Shown here in pieces: positions 5,766-22,665 of a DNA stretch of 64,000 nt (position 1 is the stretch's first letter; every line of letters begins with the position of its first letter). Below the pieces are notes generated by a model. The model saw only the letters and a program-made list of their open reading frames with translations, did not search any database and was not told the DNA's origin. The position numbers and the translations under genes are program-made. This DNA is from Candidatus Hadarchaeales archaeon (GTDB taxonomy: Archaea > Hadarchaeota > Hadarchaeia > Hadarchaeales > WYZ-LMO6): NCBI GenBank assembly GCA_038851755.1, contig JAWCKR010000006.1, positions 11,350-75,349 on the forward strand, in the 5' to 3' direction.

Positions 5766-7679
5766 TCAGACACCCGCTAGGAGGAGAATCCGGTACATCA
5801 CCCCTCCCAGCCAGAGCGCGAAGAGGACCTCCGCGAGCGCGATGTAGAGGGACCTCCTCCAGCCCACCTCCCTCACCAGGGCGGCCAGCGTGGCCACGCA
5901 GGGAAAGTAGAACATGGTCACGGTGGCGAAAGTGAGCATCTGGGCGTGGGTGAGGTGGAGGGAGAGGTCGGACCCTAGGAGCAGGGTGAGCATGATGAGG
6001 GTGAGTTCCTTCCTCAGCAGGCCGAAAAGGAGGACCACCCCCGCCACTGCGGGCAGGCCCAGCCAGCCCACCGTGAGGGGGCTCAGGAGGTTGGAGAAGG
6101 GGTCCAGGAGGCCCGCCACCCTCAGGAGCGTGAGGATCAGGCTGCCGCCCAGGATGAAGGGCAGGGCCACGTAGAGGAAGTCCTGGGTCCTGTTCCAGCT
6201 ACCGCGGAGGACCGTGGGAAGGTGGGGCCTGCGGTAGGGAGGGATTTCCATGATCAGCCCCACGGGTTCCCCAGGCAGGATTTTGAAGGCCAGCCTGCCT
6301 AGCAGGAAGATCACCGCCAGGTCCAGCAGGTAGAGGAGAAGGGCCCATCCCATCCCCACGAACTTGCCCACCAGGCCCAGGATTACCACCGTGCGGGCCG
6401 CGCAGGGTACGAGGGTGGAAAGAAAGATGGAGAGGAGCCTCTCCCTCTCCGTTTCCATGATCCTGCAGCCCAGGCAGGCCGGAACGTTGCATCCGTAGCC
6501 CAGCAGGAGGGGAATGAAGGCCTTACCGTGCACCCCCACCCTGTGCATGAGCCCGTCCATCAGGAAGGCGCCCCTCGCGAGGTAACCCGAGTCCTCCAGG
6601 AGGGTGAGGAGGAAATAGAAGGGCAGGACGAAGGGCAGGACGATGGTCAGACCAGCCAGCACCCCTCCCAGCACCCCCTCCCCCACCAGGCCCCCGAACC
6701 TCTCCGAGGTCCACTCCACCAGGGGGTTCGTAAGCCTCTCCAGGGCCTCCTCCACCCTTCCCCCGACCCAGAAGACCGTGAGGAGGATGGAGAGGAGCAC
6801 GCACGCCAGGATGAGGTAGCCCAGCACGGGATGGGTGGTCAGGGCATCCAGCCTTTCGGTGGGGGTGGGGGCGGGGTGGATGCGCTGGGTCTGGTTCGCT
6901 ATCCTGTGGGCCAGGCCGTACCTGCAGGAGCTGAGGAGGGTGGAGGCCCTCTCCCCGTAAAGCCTCTCCAGCTCCCGTGAGTACCTCCTCGCCAGCTCAA
7001 CCGCCCCGGGTGCGGTCCTGCCTACGAGTTTCCTGACCTCCTCGTCCCCCTCCAGAAGCTTCAGGGCCAGCCACCTGGGGGGATACCCGGTGCCCGCCTT
7101 CTCCAGCAGGGGGAGGAGGGTACGTACCCTCCTCTCGATCTCCCTCCCGTAGGAGAACCTGCGTAACCTGATCTTCCTCCTGCCCTCCGCCACCTCCACG
7201 GCCCTCTCCAGCAGGGTGTGCATTCCCTTCCCCCTCACGGCCACGGTGGGCACCACGGGGACCCCGAGCTGTCTCTCCAGCTCCCTGGGGTCCACCTTCA
7301 CACCCTTCCTCTCCGCCACGTCCACCTGGTTCAGGGCCACCACCACCTTGGGCTCCAACTCCAGCAGCTGGAGGGTGAAGAAGAGGTTCCTCTCCAGGGA
7401 GGAGGCGTCCACCACGTTGATCACCACGTCCGGTCTCTCCCCCGCGATGTACTCCCTGGAGATCCTCTCCTCCAAGGAGAAGGTGGAAAGGGAGTAGATT
7501 CCGGGGAGGTCTATCACATCCACCACCCTCCCTCTGAAGTGCAGGGTCCCCTCCGCCTTCTCCACGGTCTTCCCTGGCCAGTTGCCCACATGCTGGTGGA
7601 GGCCCGTGAAGTGGTTGAAGATCACCGATTTCCCCACGTTGGCGTTCCCTGCCAGGGCTATCCTGAGGTGGGCCTTCAT
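5766..7679 (-). CDS. feoB: ferrous iron transporter FeoB
   Basis: The N-terminal G-domain has GNANVGKS and DLPG. The large C-terminal polytopic membrane domain is typical of FeoB. Confidence 0.9.
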   Translation of the reverse strand: MKAHLRIALAGNANVGKSVIFNHFTGLHQHVGNWPGKTVEKAEGTLHFRGRVVDVIDLPGIYSLSTFSLEERISREYIAGERPDVVINVVDASSLERNLFFTLQLLELEPKVVVALNQVDVAERKGVKVDPRELERQLGVPVVPTVAVRGKGMHTLLERAVEVAEGRRKIRLRRFSYGREIERRVRTLLPLLEKAGTGYPPRWLALKLLEGDEEVRKLVGRTAPGAVELARRYSRELERLYGERASTLLSSCRYGLAHRIANQTQRIHPAPTPTERLDALTTHPVLGYLILACVLLSILLTVFWVGGRVEEALERLTNPLVEWTSERFGGLVGEGVLGGVLAGLTIVLPFVLPFYFLLTLLEDSGYLARGAFLMDGLMHRVGVHGKAFIPLLLGYGCNVPACLGCRIMETERERLLSIFLSTLVPCAARTVVILGLVGKFVGMGWALLLYLLDLAVIFLLGRLAFKILPGEPVGLIMEIPPYRRPHLPTVLRGSWNRTQDFLYVALPFILGGSLILTLLRVAGLLDPFSNLLSPLTVGWLGLPAVAGVVLLFGLLRKELTLIMLTLLLGSDLSLHLTHAQMLTFATVTMFYFPCVATLAALVREVGWRRSLYIALAEVLFALWLGGVMYRILLLAGV

Positions 7680-7683
7680 CCCT

Positions 7684-8301
7684 TCACCCGAGGGGTTTCA
7701 CGAAGACCCTTGAGGCCAGCCCCCTGCCCACCGCCAGGGTGGTGTCCCTCACCCTCACCATGAGGGGCCCGCGGAAGAGGGCGGACTTCAGGACCTCCAC
7801 CTCGGTCCCCGGGGTGAGCCCCATGTCGGCCAGCCTGCGGCAGGCGGAGGTACCGCCGGAGAGGAAGGAGACCACTCCTCTCTGCCCTTCCAGAAGACCC
7901 GTGAGGGGGAGGGAGCCGGTGGGCACCCCCCTGGGCAGCCGCTGGGCCTCCATCCGCCGGTGGATGGCGGCCTCCACCTCCTCGGGGATGTGGTGCTCCA
8001 GCTCGCATGCCTTCTGGTGGGCCCTTGAGGGGGAGAGTCCGAGGCTGCTGAGGAACCTCTCCATCACCCTGTGCTTCCTGAGGATGCCCCTCCCCACCTC
8101 CTCCCCCTTCCTGGTGAGGGTCACCCCCCGGTAGGGGTGATGGCGGAGGTAGCCTCCTTTGGCCAGCTTCTTGAGCATGAGGGTGGCGCTGGAGGGGGCC
8201 ACTCCCAGCTCCCTCGCCACCTTCGTGGTGGTGCTCCTCTCCCCCCTTTCCTTCAGGCGGTAGAGGGCCTCTAGGTACTCCTCCGAACTCTCGGTGGTCA
8301 T
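7684..8301 (-). CDS. DtxR/IdeR-family metal-dependent repressor with a C-terminal SH3-like (FeoA-like) domain
   Basis: It has an N-terminal wHTH (ARELGVAPSSATLMLKKL) and metal-site H/E/C residues. The C-terminal FeoA/SH3-like segment is VVSFLSGG...LADMGLTPGTEVEV. The gene sits immediately upstream of feoB. Confidence 0.8.
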   Translation of the reverse strand: MTTESSEEYLEALYRLKERGERSTTTKVARELGVAPSSATLMLKKLAKGGYLRHHPYRGVTLTRKGEEVGRGILRKHRVMERFLSSLGLSPSRAHQKACELEHHIPEEVEAAIHRRMEAQRLPRGVPTGSLPLTGLLEGQRGVVSFLSGGTSACRRLADMGLTPGTEVEVLKSALFRGPLMVRVRDTTLAVGRGLASRVFVKPLG

Positions 8302-17761: not shown

Positions 17762-18694
17762 ATGGAGAAGCTGATTATCACCGTGGCCCCCACGGGAGGG
17801 GAGTTCGTTTCCAAGATGTTCACCCCCCATGTCCCCTGCACGGTGGAGGAAATCGTGGAGGAGGTGGTGAGGTGCCGCAGGGCGGGGGCCTCCGTGGTCC
17901 ACCTGCACGCCAAGGACCCAGAGACGGGGTTCCCACACCCCCAGCCCAACTCCGTCTTTCCCGAGTACGTGAGGAGGATCAGGGAGAGCGAGGCCTCGGA
18001 CATCATCATCAACCTCACCACGGGGGGAGGAAGGCCCCTGCCCGGTCCCCTGGCGGAGATGCTGGGGAGGAAGACGGAGATGACCCCGGAGGAGTACCGG
18101 AGGAGCCTGGACAGGGTGATGGAGGAGAGGATGACCTTCGGGCAGGAAATGAGTTCCCTGAACATGGGCTCCATCAACCTCTGGGAGGACATGGGCTTCC
18201 CCTCCCTCAGGGAGGAGATCTTCGACAACCCCGTGGCCAGGATAGAGAGGTGGGCGGAGTACATGTACCGCAACGGGGTGAAGCCCGAGCTAGAGATCTA
18301 CGACACGGGTCAGATCAACACCGCCAAGGTCCTGGTGGAGGAGGGAAAGCTGAAGGAGCCCCTTCACGTCCAGTTCGTGATGATGGGCGGGCTCTCCTGC
18401 ATGTCCCCCACCGCGGACACCCTCCTTTACTGCGTGAGGGCCTTGCCCGCGGGGTGGACCTGGTCGGTGTGTGCGCCCGGGAGGCACGAGATGCCCATGG
18501 CGGCCCTGGCCATTCTCCTGGGGGGTCACGTGAGGGTGGGGATGGAGGACAACCTCTACGTGGAGAAGGGGGTGCTGGCGAAGAGCAACGCCGAGCTGGT
18601 GGAGAAGGTGGTCAGGCTGGCGAAGGAGCTGGGCAGGGAGGTGGCCTCCCCCGAGGAGGCCCGCAGGATCCTGGGCCTCAAGCCCAGGTCCTAG
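17762..18694 (+). CDS. BKACE-family (DUF849) 3-keto-5-aminohexanoate cleavage enzyme-like protein
   Basis: It has MEKLIITVAPTGGEF and VHLHAKDPETG, characteristic of beta-keto acid cleavage enzymes. Confidence 0.65.
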   Translation: MEKLIITVAPTGGEFVSKMFTPHVPCTVEEIVEEVVRCRRAGASVVHLHAKDPETGFPHPQPNSVFPEYVRRIRESEASDIIINLTTGGGRPLPGPLAEMLGRKTEMTPEEYRRSLDRVMEERMTFGQEMSSLNMGSINLWEDMGFPSLREEIFDNPVARIERWAEYMYRNGVKPELEIYDTGQINTAKVLVEEGKLKEPLHVQFVMMGGLSCMSPTADTLLYCVRALPAGWTWSVCAPGRHEMPMAALAILLGGHVRVGMEDNLYVEKGVLAKSNAELVEKVVRLAKELGREVASPEEARRILGLKPRS

Positions 18695-19101
18695 CCTTCG
18701 GGCTTCAGCTCCAGGGTCTCCCACCTCACCCTTCCTCCCTCCACCACCTCCTTGATCTTCCTCTCCACGGGAGTGAGGACGCTCCTCCCCGTCTTCACCT
18801 CCAGGAACACCACCTCCGTGGGCTCCCCCCTGCTGTGCCCCTCGAAGATCACGTAGTCCACCGGGGAGCCTATGAAGCGGGCGTCGGAGGGCTCGTACTT
18901 GAACTGTGGGAGGAGGGGGGCCATCTGTTCCCCTATCCTCCCCTTCAGGACGGCCCTGCTCCTCTCCAGGGCCTCCCTCCTGAGGGTTTCCTCCACTTCA
19001 AGCTTCCATCTCTCCAGCTTGCTCCTGAAGAGGGAGAGGAGGAAGAGATAGGCTGCTCCCAGCCCCAGCAGGAAGCCCAGCAGCAGCCAGAGGGTCTCCA
19101 T
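18691..19101 (-). CDS. membrane-anchored PD-(D/E)xK nuclease-like protein (Hjc-related; COG4741-like)
   Basis: It has an N-terminal TM helix and a coiled coil. The C-terminal core VDYVIFEG...EVVFLEVKTG is Hjc-like, with D...E-V-K catalytic residues. Confidence 0.5.
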   Translation of the reverse strand: METLWLLLGFLLGLGAAYLFLLSLFRSKLERWKLEVEETLRREALERSRAVLKGRIGEQMAPLLPQFKYEPSDARFIGSPVDYVIFEGHSRGEPTEVVFLEVKTGRSVLTPVERKIKEVVEGGRVRWETLELKPEG

Positions 19102-19254
19102 CCTCCTCTTTTCTGAAAGGAGCAGGTAAAGCCTTTGTATCCAGGCAAAAAGGCTGGGGGAAAATTCTTGAGTCCTCTTTTAAAAGGAATAAATCCGACT
19201 CGAATGAGAAGCAGGGCTATAGGAGGACGGATGGAGGACCTCTAAGGGACCGGA

Positions 19255-20952
19255 ATGGAGGGAGTCCTGAAAAAGACGGTGAAGCTGAAGCTGAATATAG
19301 AGCCTACAGAGTTGGAAGAGGTGATGAGTAAGTACTCAGCCGCCGTGAACTTTTACATCAAGCGCTGCTTCCAGGTTCTAACCAACAACCGTTGGCTAGG
19401 AAAGAGTGAGAGGTTCCAGGCTACCTGTTCGTCGTGCGGGACCGAAGGTACCGTGGTCTCCGTCGGGTCTCTGGGAAGCTTGTGCGCCGACTGCCGTAGG
19501 AACATGCTTAGTTACAATGCCCTGCGCAAACGTTTCACTCCTACCAAAGAGAGGCGCGTACCGGCCGCAGATAATGTTTACCTCGCGGCTCGTAACTTAT
19601 CGCCTACCCTCGCCGCTCAGGCTTTTCAGCATGCACAGGCAATTCTCAAGAGCTGGTTTGCCCTGAAAAAGAAGAGGGATTACGCACTTAGGGACGTGGA
19701 GAAGAAGCTAAGGCTCTGGAAGGAAGTCCTGGAAGACAGCGAAGTGGTGGCGGGGGAGGGGAAGATTAAAGCACGCGTAGTGGTGCCCCCCAAGGGACGA
19801 CAGCGTCTGCCTAGGTTCAAGCATGTCCTTCACCCGGAGAACTTCAAAGGAAGGACCCTGAGGGGGATAGAGCTAGCCATCGAAAAACTGGAGAGGAGAC
19901 GTCGCGCACTTTTGAAAGAGCAGTTGCCCCCCAAGTTCCGCGGAGAATCGATGTGGCTTCACAAGAACTCGATAAAATTCTTGGACGAGCGGAGGGTCAA
20001 GCTCGTGCTGGAAGGGAAGCACATGGAAGTGCAATTTCATGCTTTGGAGGTCGAGCGCGAAAAGAGCAGAGATTACCTAATGAGGTATGTTCGCTTAGCG
20101 CTCGAGATGCAGGAGAGAAACATCCATGCCTATCCCAGGTTGCTCATTGAAAACGGTTCTTGCTTCCTGGAGTTTCCGGTCAGGATACCCTTTGGGACAC
20201 CAGAGCCTGACGAAACTTTCGGGGCAGTGGGTATCGACCGTGGGGTCAACTCGCTTATAGCTTTTGCTGCGGTCAACCGCTACTTGGGCAAGCCCCATCA
20301 TTTGTGGTTGGCGAGCGGTGGGGAATTGTCCTTGCTTAGGGCGAAGGGAAGGCTGCTCCGGAGGAGGTTATATGAGGTGGGCAAAGTTCACCGCGAGCAG
20401 GGGAAGCGTTTCCGGTTACGCAGGAGATTAAAATCGATGAAGAAAGAGAGTGAGCTCTCGAAACATATCCTGCATGGGATTGCGAAGTCCGTGGTGAGGA
20501 AGGCGAAGGAGCTGTATCCCGACGGACGCGTGGTTATAGTAATGGAGAAGCTCGAAGGCCTTCGCCCGGTGAAAGGGAAGAAGCATGAGCGCTCTTTGAA
20601 TTTCAAGCTTTCGAGTTTTGCATACAGGAGGCTCGGGGAATACATACATTACAAGGCTCAGGAGGAGGGAATACCCGTAATTTTCGTACCACCCTCAGGG
20701 ACCTCCACCAGGTGTTCTAAGTGCGGTTGCGACAATCCCTCTAACAGGTCAGGTGGTTTCTTTAGGTGCTCCAATTGTGGATTCCAAATGAACGCTGACC
20801 TGAACGCTGCAATAAACATTGCCAACCGCTTCTACGAAAATTTTAAAGGCGGAGAAAAACAGAACGGAATTGGGGCCGAGGAACGCCCGGACCCCTCGGC
20901 TCCGAGTAGGTCAAGCTCACCAGAAGGTGAGGAGCGCGCCCCTAACCCCTGA
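19255..20952 (+). CDS. tnpB: TnpB/Cas12f-like RuvC nuclease (565 aa) with an N-terminal C4 zinc finger and a C-terminal zinc ribbon
   Basis: RuvC-I is GAVGIDRGVN, RuvC-II is VIVMEKLEGL, the Zn ribbon is CSKCGC...CSNCG and RuvC-III is NADLNAAINIA. The N-terminal zinc finger is CSSCG...CADC. The C-terminal tail is disordered and G/E/P/S-rich. An RBS AGGAGGA and a TATA-like TTTTAAAAGG lie upstream. Confidence 0.85.
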   Translation: MEGVLKKTVKLKLNIEPTELEEVMSKYSAAVNFYIKRCFQVLTNNRWLGKSERFQATCSSCGTEGTVVSVGSLGSLCADCRRNMLSYNALRKRFTPTKERRVPAADNVYLAARNLSPTLAAQAFQHAQAILKSWFALKKKRDYALRDVEKKLRLWKEVLEDSEVVAGEGKIKARVVVPPKGRQRLPRFKHVLHPENFKGRTLRGIELAIEKLERRRRALLKEQLPPKFRGESMWLHKNSIKFLDERRVKLVLEGKHMEVQFHALEVEREKSRDYLMRYVRLALEMQERNIHAYPRLLIENGSCFLEFPVRIPFGTPEPDETFGAVGIDRGVNSLIAFAAVNRYLGKPHHLWLASGGELSLLRAKGRLLRRRLYEVGKVHREQGKRFRLRRRLKSMKKESELSKHILHGIAKSVVRKAKELYPDGRVVIVMEKLEGLRPVKGKKHERSLNFKLSSFAYRRLGEYIHYKAQEEGIPVIFVPPSGTSTRCSKCGCDNPSNRSGGFFRCSNCGFQMNADLNAAINIANRFYENFKGGEKQNGIGAEERPDPSAPSRSSSPEGEERAPNP

Positions 20953-21130
20953 AAGAAGGGGGACGGCAAGCGTGCTCGGGCAGCGTCGCACTGCCAGAGC
21001 TCGGACCTGCCCCGCTTTCGAGCGGGATGCAAGGCTCCGGCCCCGATGACATGAGGGGACGGGTCAGAACGGGCGACGCCTTCCCAACTTTTGAACGTCT
21101 TTATAAACCTTCTTTGTAAAAACCGAAGTT
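20870..21130 (+). ncRNA. candidate omegaRNA (reRNA)/tracr-like structured RNA overlapping the tnpB 3' end
   Basis: There are at least five consecutive GC-rich hairpins: GCCGAGG..CCTCGGC, CTCACC-agaa-GGTGAG, CCCCT..AGGGG, GGCAG-cgtcgca-CTGCC, CCCGC-tttcga-GCGGG and CCCC..GGGG. They are followed by an AT-rich stretch containing CCCAACT...TTGAAC, which is complementary to parts of the downstream repeat. Confidence 0.4.
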
Positions 21131-21330
21131 CAAACGGTGGGAACCAGGGAGTCCAGTGGGGCCGTACTGGCATCACCAGAAACGAGGGGGGTTTCAATAG
21201 ACTCAGGAGTTGGGTGGGTGATGCGACCACTACGGAGTTGTACTTTTCTCCCTCAGGAGGTGAGGATTCTCGCCTTGACGAGGCGAAGATCTTGGGTTGT
21301 TTCAATGGACCCAGGAGTTGGGTAGGTCAT
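21128..21330 (+). repeat. two 32-bp direct repeats separated by 76 bp, plus an upstream degenerate copy
   Basis: The repeats are GTTTCAATAGACTCAGGAGTTGGGTGGGTGAT at 21191-21222 and GTTTCAATGGACCCAGGAGTTGGGTAGGTCAT at 21299-21330. They match at 28 of 32 positions and are 76 bp apart. An upstream degenerate copy, AGTTCAAACGGTGGGAACCAGGGAGTCCAGTGGGG, lies at about 21128-21165. Confidence 0.6.
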
Positions 21331-21350
21331 ATCTTAAAGTTAGATGGGGT

Positions 21351-21920
21351 TTACCTGAGCCTGGCCCCCAGGTGGGCTAGTGTGGCCTTCTTCACTTCCT
21401 CGGCTTTCTTCCTCCCCACCAAGTGCTTCAGGAGCTCAAGGGCGAAGGCGAAGGCAGTGGCCGGTCCCATGCTGGTGATGATCTTCCCGTCCGCCACCAC
21501 CAGTCCCCTTGAGGGCTTCCCTCCGCCCTTCTTCAGCTCCGCTTCCATGCCGGGGTAGATGGTGCTCTTCTTCCCCCTGAGCACCCCAGCCTCTGCGAGG
21601 ACGGAGGGGGCACCGCAGATGGCAGCCACGATTAACCCCCTCTCAGCCGCTTCCCTCACCAGCTCCAGCACCTTCCGGTTTTTCCTGAGGTTCTCGTACC
21701 CGGGATACCCTCCGGGACAGATCACGGCGTCGAAGTCCCTCACGCTGACTTCCTCCAGCTTGCGGTCAGGAATCACCTTCACCCCGTGCGATCCCTCCAC
21801 CGGCGTCTCCAGTCCCGCCGTCACCACCTCCACCCCTCCCCTCCTGAGGAGGTCCACCACCGTCATGGCCTCCACCTCCTCGAAGCCCGGGGCCAGGAAG
21901 ACGAGGGCCTTCACCATCAT
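21351..21920 (-). CDS. DJ-1/PfpI-family protein
   Basis: It has the nucleophile-elbow context AICGAP and the class-I glutamine amidotransferase-like fold of PfpI/DJ-1. Confidence 0.75.
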   Translation of the reverse strand: MMVKALVFLAPGFEEVEAMTVVDLLRRGGVEVVTAGLETPVEGSHGVKVIPDRKLEEVSVRDFDAVICPGGYPGYENLRKNRKVLELVREAAERGLIVAAICGAPSVLAEAGVLRGKKSTIYPGMEAELKKGGGKPSRGLVVADGKIITSMGPATAFAFALELLKHLVGRKKAEEVKKATLAHLGARLR

Positions 21921-21966
21921 TCTCCTTTCTCCGGGGTTTTTAAAATCGAGCGGGAGAGGAGGGTGG

Positions 21967-22665
21967 ATGGAAGCGGTGGGGATGATCCTCTGCGGGGGTT
22001 ACGGTAAGAGGCTTTTCCCCCTCACCCGGACCCTACCCAAGGTCCTGCTGGAGCTGAGGGAGGGCTACACCATCCTCGACCACCAGCTCTCCCTCTACCG
22101 CAGGGCGGGCATCAGGGAGGTCTACCTGCTGGCCGGGTACCGGGCGGAAGAGATCAGGAAGAGGTACGGGGCGTCCTGGGAAGGAATGGAGCTGAGGTAC
22201 GTGGTGGAGAAGGAACCCCTGGGCACCCTTAACGCTATCAGGCTTGGGATGAGGGAGGCTGGAAGGGAGGCGGTGGTGAGCAACGGGGACGTGGTGATGG
22301 AGCTGGACATGGGAAAAATGTGGGAGGACTTCCGGAGGTCGAAGGCCCTGGCTTCCCTGTTGGCGGTGAGGATGAGGAGCCCCTACGGGGTCCTGAAGCT
22401 CAGGGGCAGGAGGATCGTCTCCTTCGTGGAGAAGCCCCTCCTTCCCCACTACGTGAACGGAGGGGTCTACTGCCTCAGCCCCCTCCTCCTCCCCCTGATG
22501 GAGAGGTTCGGAAAGGGGAACGTGGAGCAGACCCTCTTCCCGGAACTGGCCAGGAGGGGAAAGCTCAGATGCTACAGGGCAGACCCGCCCCTCTGGGTCC
22601 CCGTGGACACCTTCAAGGACCTGGAGGAAGCCAGGAAGAGGCTGGAGGGGCTCAGGAGGGCTTGA
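21967..22665 (+). CDS. sugar-phosphate nucleotidyltransferase (NTP_transferase family)
   Basis: Internal ATG at 21967. It has the motif GMILCGGYGKRLFPLT. Confidence 0.65.
   Translation: MEAVGMILCGGYGKRLFPLTRTLPKVLLELREGYTILDHQLSLYRRAGIREVYLLAGYRAEEIRKRYGASWEGMELRYVVEKEPLGTLNAIRLGMREAGREAVVSNGDVVMELDMGKMWEDFRRSKALASLLAVRMRSPYGVLKLRGRRIVSFVEKPLLPHYVNGGVYCLSPLLLPLMERFGKGNVEQTLFPELARRGKLRCYRADPPLWVPVDTFKDLEEARKRLEGLRRA

What the first reader, a model, noticed from the sequence alone, without database searches (positions are those of the whole stretch)
19255..21335. 565-aa TnpB/Cas12f-like RuvC nuclease with N-terminal zinc finger, followed by a structured RNA region and a mini-array-like pair of 32-bp repeats
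The protein has the complete RuvC-I/II/III triad (GIDRG, MEKLEG, NADLNAAINIA) plus the TnpB zinc ribbon, so it is probably an active nuclease. It is about 150 aa longer than typical IS605 TnpBs and carries an extra N-terminal C4 zinc finger (CSSCG...CADC), a feature of miniature Cas12f/type V effectors. Its C-terminal 35 aa are low-complexity, as expected when the ORF overlaps an RNA scaffold. Immediately downstream are at least five stacked GC-rich hairpins, then two 32-bp direct repeats whose first 8 nt (GTTTCAAT) match a frequent CRISPR repeat start and whose length is CRISPR-like, 76 bp apart, plus a degenerate third copy. The whole locus is about 10% lower in GC than its surroundings, so it was probably acquired horizontally. 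This could be an uncharacterised TnpB-to-Cas12 intermediate with a minimal array, or an omegaRNA-guided TnpB with an unusual right end.
Basis: partly seen in the sequence, partly recalled or inferred. Interest (0 to 1): 0.75.

Follow-up and report, generated by a model that had tools for sequence, protein, structure and literature searches.

The report
Orphan Cas12f2 with tracrRNA and mini-array
This is a compact but ordinary member of a known miniature CRISPR nuclease family (Cas12f2, also called Cas14b), with its helper RNA gene and a one-spacer CRISPR array, dropped as a 2.2-kb foreign insert between two housekeeping genes of a Hadarchaeales archaeon.

Summary
ORF 19255-20952 (+) encodes a 565-aa RuvC nuclease with an N-terminal C4 zinc finger. 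It is followed by a structured RNA region and two direct repeats, all in a low-GC island.

It is not a TnpB or an unknown intermediate. The protein matches NCBI's curated Cas12f2 (= Cas14b, type V-F2) model end to end, above its cutoff. Relatives 41-56% identical sit next to real CRISPR arrays, and one sits next to cas4, cas1, csa1 and cas2.

The repeats are 37 nt, not 32. R1 (21191-21227) is intact. R2 (21299-21335) has a decayed 3' end, as terminal repeats often do. The "third copy" is not significant.

The hairpin region (20879 to about 21100) is a tracrRNA conserved in five loci. Twelve of its 33 pairs show compensatory changes, and two anti-repeat elements co-vary with each locus's own repeat.

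Related Hadesarchaea contigs have the two flanking genes 9-37 bp apart. About 2,216 bp, including both repeats, is therefore an insertion. GC is 0.535 against 0.63 in the flanks; GC3 is 0.64 against 0.85-0.93.

No cas1, cas2 or cas4 lies in the 64 kb, and no target was found for the 71-nt spacer. Verdict: a new member of a known kind, of modest interest.

The parts
19134..21352 (.). Inserted low-GC cassette, about 2,216 bp. The boundaries are ambiguous by the TTT present at both junctions (19134-19136 and 21350-21352).
   Evidence: Homology to Hadesarchaea contig L164 runs over window 18577-19108 (89.7%) and 21350-22500 (88.6%). Between those blocks L164 has only 29 nt. The junction sequences were aligned. 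GC is 0.535 against 0.63 in the flanks, and GC3 is 0.64 against 0.85-0.93.
19178..19185 (+). TTTTAAAA, a possible archaeal TATA box about 70 nt upstream of the cas12f2 start codon (inferred).
   Evidence: Read directly from the sequence. It is not conserved at the DNA level in the other loci, so this is weak.
19255..20952 (+). cas12f2 (cas14b-type) gene, 565 aa. It has an N-terminal C4 zinc finger, an intact RuvC triad and a TNB zinc ribbon. The last 30 or so codons are a non-conserved read-through into the tracrRNA gene.
   Evidence: NF049972 Cas12f2 at 554.8 bits against a cutoff of 450, covering residues 8-530. PADLOC Cas14b model full length. Pfam TNB domain. Invariant residues. The AF2 model best matches solved Cas12f structures.
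20879..21028 (+). Conserved structured core of the tracrRNA. It includes a hairpin whose loop GUCGCA (20985-20990) is complementary to the UGCGAC 3' end of the repeat.
   Evidence: Covariance model R1 hits the window at 166 bits. It also hits L169, which was not used to build it, at 134.7 bits. 97% of cells are paired and 12 of 33 pairs have compensatory changes; 0 of 500 shuffles reach this. In L169 the loop is GUCACA and the repeat end is UGUGAC.
21076..21100 (+). 3' anti-repeat of the tracrRNA. It pairs with repeat positions 8-31.
   Evidence: Duplex with its own repeat is -29.8 kcal/mol, against -10 to -15 with the other loci's repeats. L001 and L003 show the same cognate preference at the homologous position.
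21100..21190 (+). Array leader. TATA-like TTTATAAA lies at 21100-21107, with a conserved GAAGTTCA motif after it.
   Evidence: An A/T-rich TATA-like motif sits at the same position in window, L001, L002, L003 and L169. Promoter function is inferred.
21191..21227 (+). CRISPR repeat R1, 37 nt and intact: GTTTCAATAGACTCAGGAGTTGGGTGGGTGATGCGAC.
   Evidence: Same length, GTT(T/G)CA start and GATGCGAC end as the repeats of arrays in L001, L003 and L169.
21228..21298 (+). The single spacer, 71 nt (spacers in homologous arrays are mostly 34-37 nt). Its first 20-24 nt would be the guide.
   Evidence: No match in the window longer than 13 nt. No match in any fetched locus, in phage or plasmid collections, or in IMG/VR for exact 20-22-mers.
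21299..21335 (+). Terminal repeat R2, degenerate. It has four internal substitutions, and its 3' end is ATCTT in place of GCGAC.
   Evidence: It still pairs with the anti-repeat (-25.5 kcal/mol) but lacks the UGCGAC end. Terminal repeats in L001 and L169 are degenerate too.

Best explanation
The locus is a minimal type V-F2 CRISPR-Cas interference module. It comprises a Cas12f2 (Cas14b-type) nuclease gene, a tracrRNA gene on the same strand that starts inside the last 70 or so nt of the ORF, a leader with a TATA-like box, and a one-spacer array (intact repeat, 71-nt spacer, decayed terminal repeat).

Proposed mechanism:
1. The array is transcribed from the leader.
2. Repeat R1 pairs with the tracrRNA at two places. 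Repeat positions 8-31 pair with the 3' anti-repeat, and the UGCGAC repeat end pairs with the GUCGCA hairpin loop.
3. Cas12f2 binds this dual RNA.
4. The first 20 or so nt of the spacer guide RuvC cleavage of matching DNA next to a 5' T-rich PAM, as shown for other Cas12f2 enzymes.

The whole 2.2-kb module arrived by horizontal transfer into a 9-37-bp intergenic gap between a DJ-1 gene and a Holliday-junction-endonuclease-like gene. No adaptation genes came with it, so it carries one fixed specificity.

Shown here: family membership, intact catalytic and zinc residues, the conserved and co-varying RNA, repeat/anti-repeat complementarity, the insertion boundaries, and the foreign composition.

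Inferred: expression, RNA processing, PAM, cleavage, and whether the module is still in use.
For: - Family membership: the curated Cas12f2 model matches at 554.8 bits against a cutoff of 450, end to end. The PADLOC Cas14b model also matches full length.
- The closest solved folds are Cas12f.
- Relatives at 41-56% identity lie next to 37-nt-repeat arrays (11, at least 3, and 6 repeats). L001 also has cas4, cas1, csa1 and cas2. More distant members L005 and L170 have cas1-cas2-cas4-cas12f2 operons.
- The catalytic D/E/D and both zinc sites are conserved.
- The tracrRNA core is conserved in five loci. 97% of cells are paired, and 12 of 33 pairs have compensatory changes. 0 of 500 shuffles reach this, and the slid controls give 22-51% paired. 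The independent hit in L169 scores 134.7 bits.
- The anti-repeat prefers its own repeat in three loci: -29.8, -31.5 and -23.3 kcal/mol, against -10 to -19 for non-cognate pairs.
- The loop and repeat end change together: GUCGCA/UGCGAC becomes GUCACA/UGUGAC in L169.
- Empty sites in L164, L167 and L168 place both repeats inside the insert.
- Two-repeat arrays recur in the family, in L004 and L170.
- Cas12f2 enzymes cut dsDNA with a 5' T-rich PAM (PMC7229846).
Against: - No cas1, cas2, cas4 or csa1 lies in the 64-kb window, so new spacers cannot be acquired from this locus.
- The single spacer is twice the normal length and has no identifiable target.
- R2 is degenerate.
- The ORF has lost its ancestral stop and reads about 30 codons into the tracrRNA gene. 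That could signal early decay or could interfere with tracrRNA expression.
- No expression data exist.
- The covariation rests on only five loci and on a model-fitted alignment.
- L169's 3' anti-repeat does not show a cognate preference.
- The PAM and cleavage activity are extrapolated from proteins only about 25-35% identical.
Confidence: 0.82

Rival explanations
1. It is a decaying relic. A fragment of a type V-F2 locus (effector, tracrRNA and the tail end of an array) was transferred or left behind. It no longer provides interference and is drifting towards loss.
For: - No adaptation genes in 64 kb.
- Only one spacer, of abnormal 71-nt length, with no detectable target.
- Degenerate R2.
- The ancestral stop codon is lost, so the ORF runs into the tracrRNA gene.
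- Codon usage is not adapted to the host: GC3 0.64 against 0.85-0.93.
Against: - The 565-codon ORF is uninterrupted, and every catalytic and zinc-binding residue is intact.
- R1, both anti-repeat elements and the tracrRNA helices are intact and match the family model at the top score.
- Unadapted composition points to a recent arrival rather than long neutral decay.
- Two-repeat arrays also occur next to complete cas1-cas2-cas4-cas12f2 operons, as in L170.
Confidence: 0.2
2. It is a fixed-guide module that does something other than adaptive immunity. One option is a selfish or homing cassette that targets its own empty site the way TnpB does. Another is a domesticated regulator whose single long spacer targets a host or mobile-element sequence elsewhere in the genome.
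For: - The cassette is a clean, self-contained 2.2-kb insertion with TTT at both junctions, and the T-rich left flank resembles a Cas12f2 PAM.
- There is a single non-canonical spacer and no adaptation genes.
- A related protein, P0139 in L169, lacks two of the three RuvC residues but keeps its tracrRNA and array. Non-cleaving uses may therefore exist in this clade.
Against: - The spacer has no match to the empty-site sequence, to the flanks, to the rest of the window, or to any relative's locus.
- The sequence after R2 starts 14 nt inside the cassette, and R2 lacks the UGCGAC end needed to pair with the tracrRNA loop. A TnpB-style flank-reading guide is therefore not evident.
- There is no second copy of the protein or repeats in 64 kb.
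- There are no terminal repeats or repeat-like left end.
- The left boundary is not conserved in the other loci.
Confidence: 0.07
3. It is an IS200/IS605-type (IS1341-like) tnpB element with an omegaRNA, and the repeats are incidental host sequence.
For: The protein belongs to the broad TnpB superfamily: NF040570 at 128.5 bits against a cutoff of 100. The public record calls it 'transposase'. It is a single-gene insertion of foreign composition.
Against: - IS200_TnpB scores 37.8 bits against a cutoff of 425, and IS607_TnpB 36.9 against 350.
- Both repeats are inside the insert. They are homologous to the repeats of real arrays next to orthologous genes.
- The RNA pairs with the repeat in a co-varying manner.
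- No tnpA, no other copies, and no terminal hairpin or repeat signature.
Confidence: 0.02

Closest known systems
Cas12f2 / Cas14b (type V-F2 CRISPR-Cas; Harrington et al. 2018 naming, Makarova et al. 2020 classification; Mi1, Mi2 and Au Cas12f2 tested in Karvelis et al. 2020, PMC7229846)
   Same: The curated family model matches end to end above its cutoff, and the PADLOC Cas14b model also matches. Size is 500-590 aa. It has the N-terminal zinc finger, RuvC triad and TNB ribbon. Repeats are 36-37 nt and end in ATGC(G/A)AC. A putative tracrRNA lies between the gene and the array, the layout used in PMC7229846.
   Different: Only about 25-35% identical to most family representatives. It belongs to a small, mainly archaeal-looking clade of five known loci with their own tracrRNA. 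It has no cas1/cas2/cas4 nearby and only one spacer, which is 71 nt long. The ORF overlaps the tracrRNA gene.
Cas12f1 (Un1Cas12f1/Cas14a1, AsCas12f, CnCas12f1), the structurally solved miniature type V-F effectors
   Same: These are the best structural matches to the AF2 model and among the best sequence matches among PDB chains (1e-10 to 1e-14). They share the tracrRNA-dependent dual-RNA guide and the repeat ending ...GGAATGCAAC. The last two points are from my own knowledge of the Un1Cas12f1 repeat.
   Different: Sequence similarity is confined to the RuvC/TNB half. Cas12f2 is a separate subtype with no solved structure in the PDB copy searched.
IS200/IS605 TnpB with omegaRNA (e.g. ISDra2 TnpB)
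   Same: Common ancestry: RuvC plus zinc-ribbon core. The guide-RNA scaffold gene overlaps the 3' end of the nuclease ORF. Here that overlap is secondary, caused by loss of the stop codon.
   Different: The guide is supplied by a separate CRISPR repeat-spacer unit that pairs with a tracrRNA, not by flanking DNA. No transposon ends, tnpA or multiple copies. It fails the curated TnpB models.
TranC (transposon-CRISPR intermediate, e.g. LaTranC, PDB 9jfo/9jfq) and other TnpB-to-Cas12 intermediates
   Same: A small RuvC effector associated with a short array. LaTranC appears among the PDB matches (E 1e-6; Foldseek rank 15).
   Different: It matches far less well than Cas12f. The window protein is already inside a named Cas12 subtype. 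Whether it can also use a contiguous omegaRNA-like guide was not tested.
Orphan or mini CRISPR arrays and stand-alone type V effectors (formerly type V-U loci without adaptation genes)
   Same: An effector with a very short array and no cas1/cas2. L004 (Woykebacteria) shows the same layout in this family.
   Different: Here the effector belongs to a subtype that normally has cas1/cas2/cas4, and the exact insertion boundaries are known from empty sites.

Membership tests
Type V-F2 CRISPR-Cas (Cas12f2 / Cas14b) | Effector matches the curated Cas12f2 profile above its trusted cutoff, over its full length | tested here: met
   NF049972 at 554.8 bits against a cutoff of 450, residues 8-530 on profile positions 1-523 of 524. 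PADLOC Cas14b model at 176 bits, full length.
Type V-F2 CRISPR-Cas (Cas12f2 / Cas14b) | Single RuvC domain with a D/E/D triad, a TNB zinc ribbon and an N-terminal zinc finger | tested here: met
   D328, E431 and D515. C487/C490/C505/C508 and C58/C61/C77/C80. All are invariant or at least 90% conserved in 22 representatives.
Type V-F2 CRISPR-Cas (Cas12f2 / Cas14b) | Adjacent CRISPR array of 36-37-nt repeats on the effector's strand | tested here: met
   R1 at 21191-21227 and R2 at 21299-21335, a minimal array of two repeats and one spacer. They are homologous to the repeats of 11-, at-least-3- and 6-repeat arrays in L001, L003 and L169.
Type V-F2 CRISPR-Cas (Cas12f2 / Cas14b) | tracrRNA with an anti-repeat complementary to the repeat | tested here: met
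   A conserved, co-varying RNA at 20879-21100. Cognate anti-repeat:repeat duplexes and a compensatory loop/repeat-end change. Expression itself cannot be tested with these tools.
Type V-F2 CRISPR-Cas (Cas12f2 / Cas14b) | Adaptation module (cas1, cas2, cas4) in the locus. This is typical of Cas14b loci but not required for effector membership. | tested here: not met
   tblastn of L001's Cas1, Cas2, Cas4 and Csa1 against the 64-kb window gives nothing below E = 0.25. Relatives L001, L005 and L170 have these genes. The rest of the genome could not be searched.
Type V-F2 CRISPR-Cas (Cas12f2 / Cas14b) | RNA-guided dsDNA cleavage next to a 5' T-rich PAM | not testable with these tools
   Known for Mi1, Mi2 and Au Cas12f2 (PMC7229846). 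Extrapolated here.
IS200/IS605 TnpB-omegaRNA transposon | Protein passes a curated TnpB equivalog or exception model | tested here: not met
   IS200_TnpB at 37.8 bits against 425. IS607_TnpB at 36.9 against 350. Only the superfamily-level guided_TnpB model passes, at 128.5 against 100.
IS200/IS605 TnpB-omegaRNA transposon | Transposon ends (LE/RE hairpins), tnpA in cis or trans, and multiple copies | tested here: not met
   No second copy of the protein or the repeats in the window. No significant terminal direct or inverted repeats. The left end is not conserved among loci. Genome-wide copy number could not be tested.
IS200/IS605 TnpB-omegaRNA transposon | The guide is the DNA immediately flanking the right end, contiguous with the scaffold RNA | tested here: not met
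   The scaffold ends in an anti-repeat that pairs with a separate repeat 90 nt downstream. Both repeats and the spacer lie inside the insert.

The most novel reading that the evidence does not exclude
The 2.2-kb cassette (effector, tracrRNA and a single fixed, over-long spacer) is a self-contained mobile or domesticated guided-nuclease unit that works without adaptation. It might defend one specific site or element, home like TnpB, or regulate a target. That would make it a natural example of a CRISPR effector sliding back towards a TnpB-like lifestyle.
Probability: 0.07. Interest if true: 0.65.

Novelty: new member of a known kind. Interest (0 to 1): 0.3.

Why it matters
- The gene is labelled 'transposase' in the public record. 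It should read Cas12f2, with an unannotated tracrRNA and mini-array next to it.
- Five loci now define the tracrRNA of a small Cas12f2 clade, including two repeat-pairing elements supported by compensatory changes. Cas12f2 has no solved structure and has been little used, so this is directly useful for designing a single-guide RNA for a probably thermostable, 530-565-aa nuclease.
- The empty-site comparison gives base-level boundaries for the horizontal transfer of a minimal interference module (effector, tracrRNA, one spacer) without adaptation genes.
- None of this changes how type V systems are understood.

Tried and rejected
- Rfam scan of 18500-22000: only two sub-threshold chance hits.
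- Spacer target search: nothing in the window (longest match 13 nt), in 170 fetched loci, in INPHARED phages, in PLSDB plasmids, or in IMG/VR for three exact 20-22-mers.
- Third degenerate repeat inside the spacer: local alignment no better than shuffles, p about 0.11. No repeat at the expected 72-nt period.
- Repeat-like or transposon-like ends of the insert: not significant. No conservation upstream of the gene among loci.
- Other copies of the protein or of cas1/cas2/cas4/csa1 in the window: none.
They returned mostly distant TnpB/Cas12f, and only L004 and L005 were useful. Those scans are capped, so I could not then search those collections for the 37-nt repeat or the tracrRNA motif.
- IMG/VR searches for relatives of the protein and for the tracrRNA core motif: none found.
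- Look-up of the exact public protein P0001: not on record, so the record's own context could not be fetched.
- Single-sequence folding does not discriminate the strand: z = -1.8 on plus, -2.2 on minus. The strand is assigned from repeat orientation, anti-repeat pairing and G-U pairs.
- The AF2 model from a 4-sequence alignment is only moderate (pLDDT 68.7, pTM 0.50). It was used only for fold-family assignment.
Full report
**What is in the sequence**

An uninterrupted ORF runs from 19255 to 20952 on the + strand and encodes 565 aa. GC falls from 0.63-0.66 in the flanks to 0.53-0.56 between about 19000 and 21350. Measured exactly, the insert is 0.535 against 0.633 and 0.631 for the 5 kb on either side. 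GC3 of the ORF is 0.64 against 0.85-0.93 for four neighbouring genes.

Two direct repeats lie at 21191 and 21299, 108 nt apart. Allowing three mismatches there is no further copy in the window, and none is expected by chance. The window holds no other CRISPR-like array.

**What the protein is**

Pfam recognises only the Cas12f1-like TNB domain. NCBIfam's curated model NF049972, "type V CRISPR-associated effector Cas12f2", matches residues 8-530 to profile positions 1-523 of 524. The score is 554.8 bits against a cutoff of 450.

The transposon TnpB models fail badly. IS200_TnpB scores 37.8 against 425, and IS607_TnpB scores 36.9 against 350. PADLOC's CAS-V-F effector and "Cas14b" models also match full length.

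Cas12f2 is the current name for Cas14b (PMC7229846). The AlphaFold model is moderate (pLDDT 68.7), but the N-terminal 160 residues are near 90 and the C-terminal tail is near 31. Its best matches are solved Cas12f structures. No Cas12f2 structure appears among PDB sequences; the closest chains are Cas12f and TnpB at 1e-10 to 1e-14, over the RuvC half only.

In a 22-sequence alignment of family representatives, these positions are invariant or at least 90% conserved: D328, E431, D515, the ribbon cysteines C487/C490/C505/C508, and the N-terminal finger C58/C61/C77/C80 (closer set). The N-terminal finger is therefore a family trait, not an addition.

The family is rare. An exhaustive profile search of 1.84 billion cluster representatives found 59 proteins at E of 1e-30 or better. 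Roughly 30 of them align over the full length.

The public record names this protein "MAG: transposase [Candidatus Hadarchaeales archaeon]" and starts it 8 codons later. Homologs align from the upstream ATG.

**What relatives look like**

| Locus | Protein and identity to window | Context |
|---|---|---|
| L001 | P0003, 53% | 11 × 37-nt repeats starting 309 nt after the stop, then cas4, cas1, csa1, cas2 |
| L003 | P0004, 43% | at least 3 identical 37-nt repeats, 309 nt after the stop; contig ends there |
| L002 | P0002, 56% | contig ends just as a GTTGCAAT... repeat begins |
| L169 | P0139, 41% | 6-repeat array |
| L005 | more distant | cas1-cas2-cas4-cas12f2 operon with 8 repeats |
| L170 | more distant | cas1-cas2-cas4-cas12f2 operon with only 2 repeats |
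| L004 | 34% | 2 repeats, no adaptation genes nearby |

Very short arrays therefore recur in this family.

**The repeats re-read**

Against these arrays, the window's repeat is 37 nt: GTTTCAATAGACTCAGGAGTTGGGTGGGTGATGCGAC (21191-21227). It shares the GTT(T/G)CA start and the GATGCGAC end with L001. L003 ends GGTGCGAC and L169 ends GATGTGAC.

R2 (21299-21335) has four internal substitutions and ATCTT in place of GCGAC. The last repeats of the L001 and L169 arrays are degenerate in the same way.

The segment between the repeats is 71 nt, about twice the 34-37 nt that is usual in relatives. A proposed third, degenerate repeat inside it is no better than shuffled sequence (p about 0.11).

**The hairpin region is a tracrRNA**

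A block from about 20880 to about 21095 is conserved in the window, L001, L002 and L003. In the three homologs it starts 15-30 nt after the stop codon. In the window, the ORF has lost that stop and reads on for about 30 non-conserved, disordered residues. This explains the "low-complexity tail".

RNAalifold gives a multi-hairpin consensus. A covariance model built from the four sequences finds nothing else in 1.8 Mb of fetched loci or in the window, with one exception. That exception is a 134.7-bit hit in L169, just upstream of its array and separated from its cas12f2 gene by another gene.

Counts on the five sequences:
- 97% of cells form standard pairs.
- 12 of 33 pairs carry changes on both sides.
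- 0 of 500 shuffles reach these values.
- Sliding the partners by 1-3 columns drops pairing to 22-51%.

The alignment is model-fitted and has only five rows, so this is good rather than overwhelming evidence. On thermodynamics alone the region is unremarkable (z = -1.8).

**Two elements pair with the repeat**

1. The 3' anti-repeat. Directly after a conserved ACGGGCGAC anchor lies a segment that differs between loci and is complementary to each locus's own repeat at positions 8-31. The window's segment is 21076-21100.

   | Locus | Own repeat (kcal/mol) | Other repeats (kcal/mol) |
   |---|---|---|
   | window | -29.8 | -10 to -15 |
   | L001 | -31.5 | -12 to -19 |
   | L003 | -23.3 | -14 to -18 |

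   L169's segment is weak (-11.3), and L002's repeat is truncated.

2. The hairpin loop. A conserved hairpin presents GUCGCA in its loop (window 20985-20990), complementary to the repeat's UGCGAC end. In L169 the loop is GUCACA and the repeat ends UGUGAC, a matched double change.

R2 keeps the first pairing (-25.5) but lacks the second. A TATA-like motif (TTTATAAA, 21100-21107) follows the anti-repeat at the same position in all five loci and probably drives the array. This is inferred.

**The insertion**

The genes flanking the island are a DJ-1/PfpI gene (21351-21920, -) and a 136-aa Endonuc_Holl gene (18691-19101, -). In three related Hadesarchaea contigs, whose DJ-1 proteins are 80-89% identical, the same two genes are 9-37 bp apart.

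Nucleotide homology to L164 covers window 18577-19108 and 21350-22500. L164 has only 29 nt between those blocks. Aligning the junctions gives the empty site GTAAAGCC-TTT-ACCTGAGC. In the window, TTT is present at both ends of a roughly 2,216-bp insert, 19134/19137 to 21349/21352.

Both repeats are inside the insert; R2 ends 14 nt before the right junction.

The insert has no significant terminal direct or inverted repeats and no repeat-like left end. The sequence upstream of the gene is not conserved between loci. How it integrated is unknown.

**What is missing**

There is no cas1, cas2, cas4 or csa1 anywhere in the 64 kb, and no second copy of the protein. The spacer has no match longer than 13 nt in the window. 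It has no match in the 170 fetched loci (which include the empty-site contigs), none in phage or plasmid collections, and none in IMG/VR for exact 20-22-mers. IMG/VR holds no relative of the protein and no copy of the tracrRNA core motif.

**Conclusion**

The locus is a minimal type V-F2 interference module: Cas12f2, its tracrRNA, a leader and a one-spacer array. It was recently acquired as a 2.2-kb insert and is an orphan with respect to adaptation genes, at least within this contig.

By analogy with tested Cas12f2 enzymes, it should cut DNA matching the first 20 or so nt of the spacer next to a 5' T-rich PAM. Those enzymes cleave after position 21 (PMC7229846).

The data cannot say whether the module is in use, is a decaying fragment, or serves a fixed-guide role other than immunity. 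The intact ORF, catalytic residues, R1 and tracrRNA favour a functional module.

It is a new member of a known kind. The useful by-products are a corrected annotation and a five-locus tracrRNA model for a little-studied, probably thermophilic Cas12f2 clade.

Noticed in passing
L169 5312-6763 (P0139), tracrRNA 7567-7719, array 7861-8247: A 483-aa relative, 41% identical, has GVCKG in place of GIDRG and NANLNAA in place of NADLNAA. It has therefore lost two of the three RuvC catalytic residues, yet it keeps a high-scoring tracrRNA homolog and a 6-repeat array. It may be a naturally nuclease-dead Cas12f2.
   Followed up: partly
L004 11823-11931 and L170 6250-6348: Two other Cas12f2 loci also have arrays of only two repeats. 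L004 (Woykebacteria) has no adaptation genes nearby. L170 has a complete cas1-cas2-cas4-cas12f2 operon. One-spacer arrays seem common in this family.
   Followed up: partly
L004 11834-11931 versus L005 11763-12315: A Woykebacteria (CPR) MAG and a Gammaproteobacteria MAG carry almost the same repeat (...CTCTTAAGAAGAATTAAGGAATGCAAC). Their Cas12f2 proteins are only 30-34% identical to the window protein. This suggests transfer of the system between phyla.
   Followed up: no
window 19118-19136 and 21350-21362; L164 6560-6580: The insertion lies in the middle of a short palindrome at the end of the DJ-1 gene (empty site CAGGTAAAGGCTTTAC). TTT is present at both junctions. This could be a 3-bp target duplication, microhomology or chance.
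   Followed up: partly
window 19255-19278: The public annotation (557 aa, 'transposase') starts 8 codons downstream of the ATG at 19255. Homologs align from the upstream start.
   Followed up: yes
window 17762-18694; L164 7025-7507; L165 1740-2672: Synteny around the site varies among Hadesarchaea. The window has a BKACE gene next to the Endonuc_Holl gene. L164 has an unrelated 160-aa ORF there. L165 and L166 have BKACE directly after DJ-1 and no Endonuc_Holl gene. This stretch may be a small hotspot for rearrangement.
   Followed up: no
L169 7861-8247: Repeat spacing in this array is irregular (72, 81, 72, 74, 50). The last repeat is 70% identical to the reference copy and follows a 13-nt spacer. 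Irregular spacer lengths near the array end, like the window's 71-nt spacer, also occur elsewhere in the clade.
   Followed up: no
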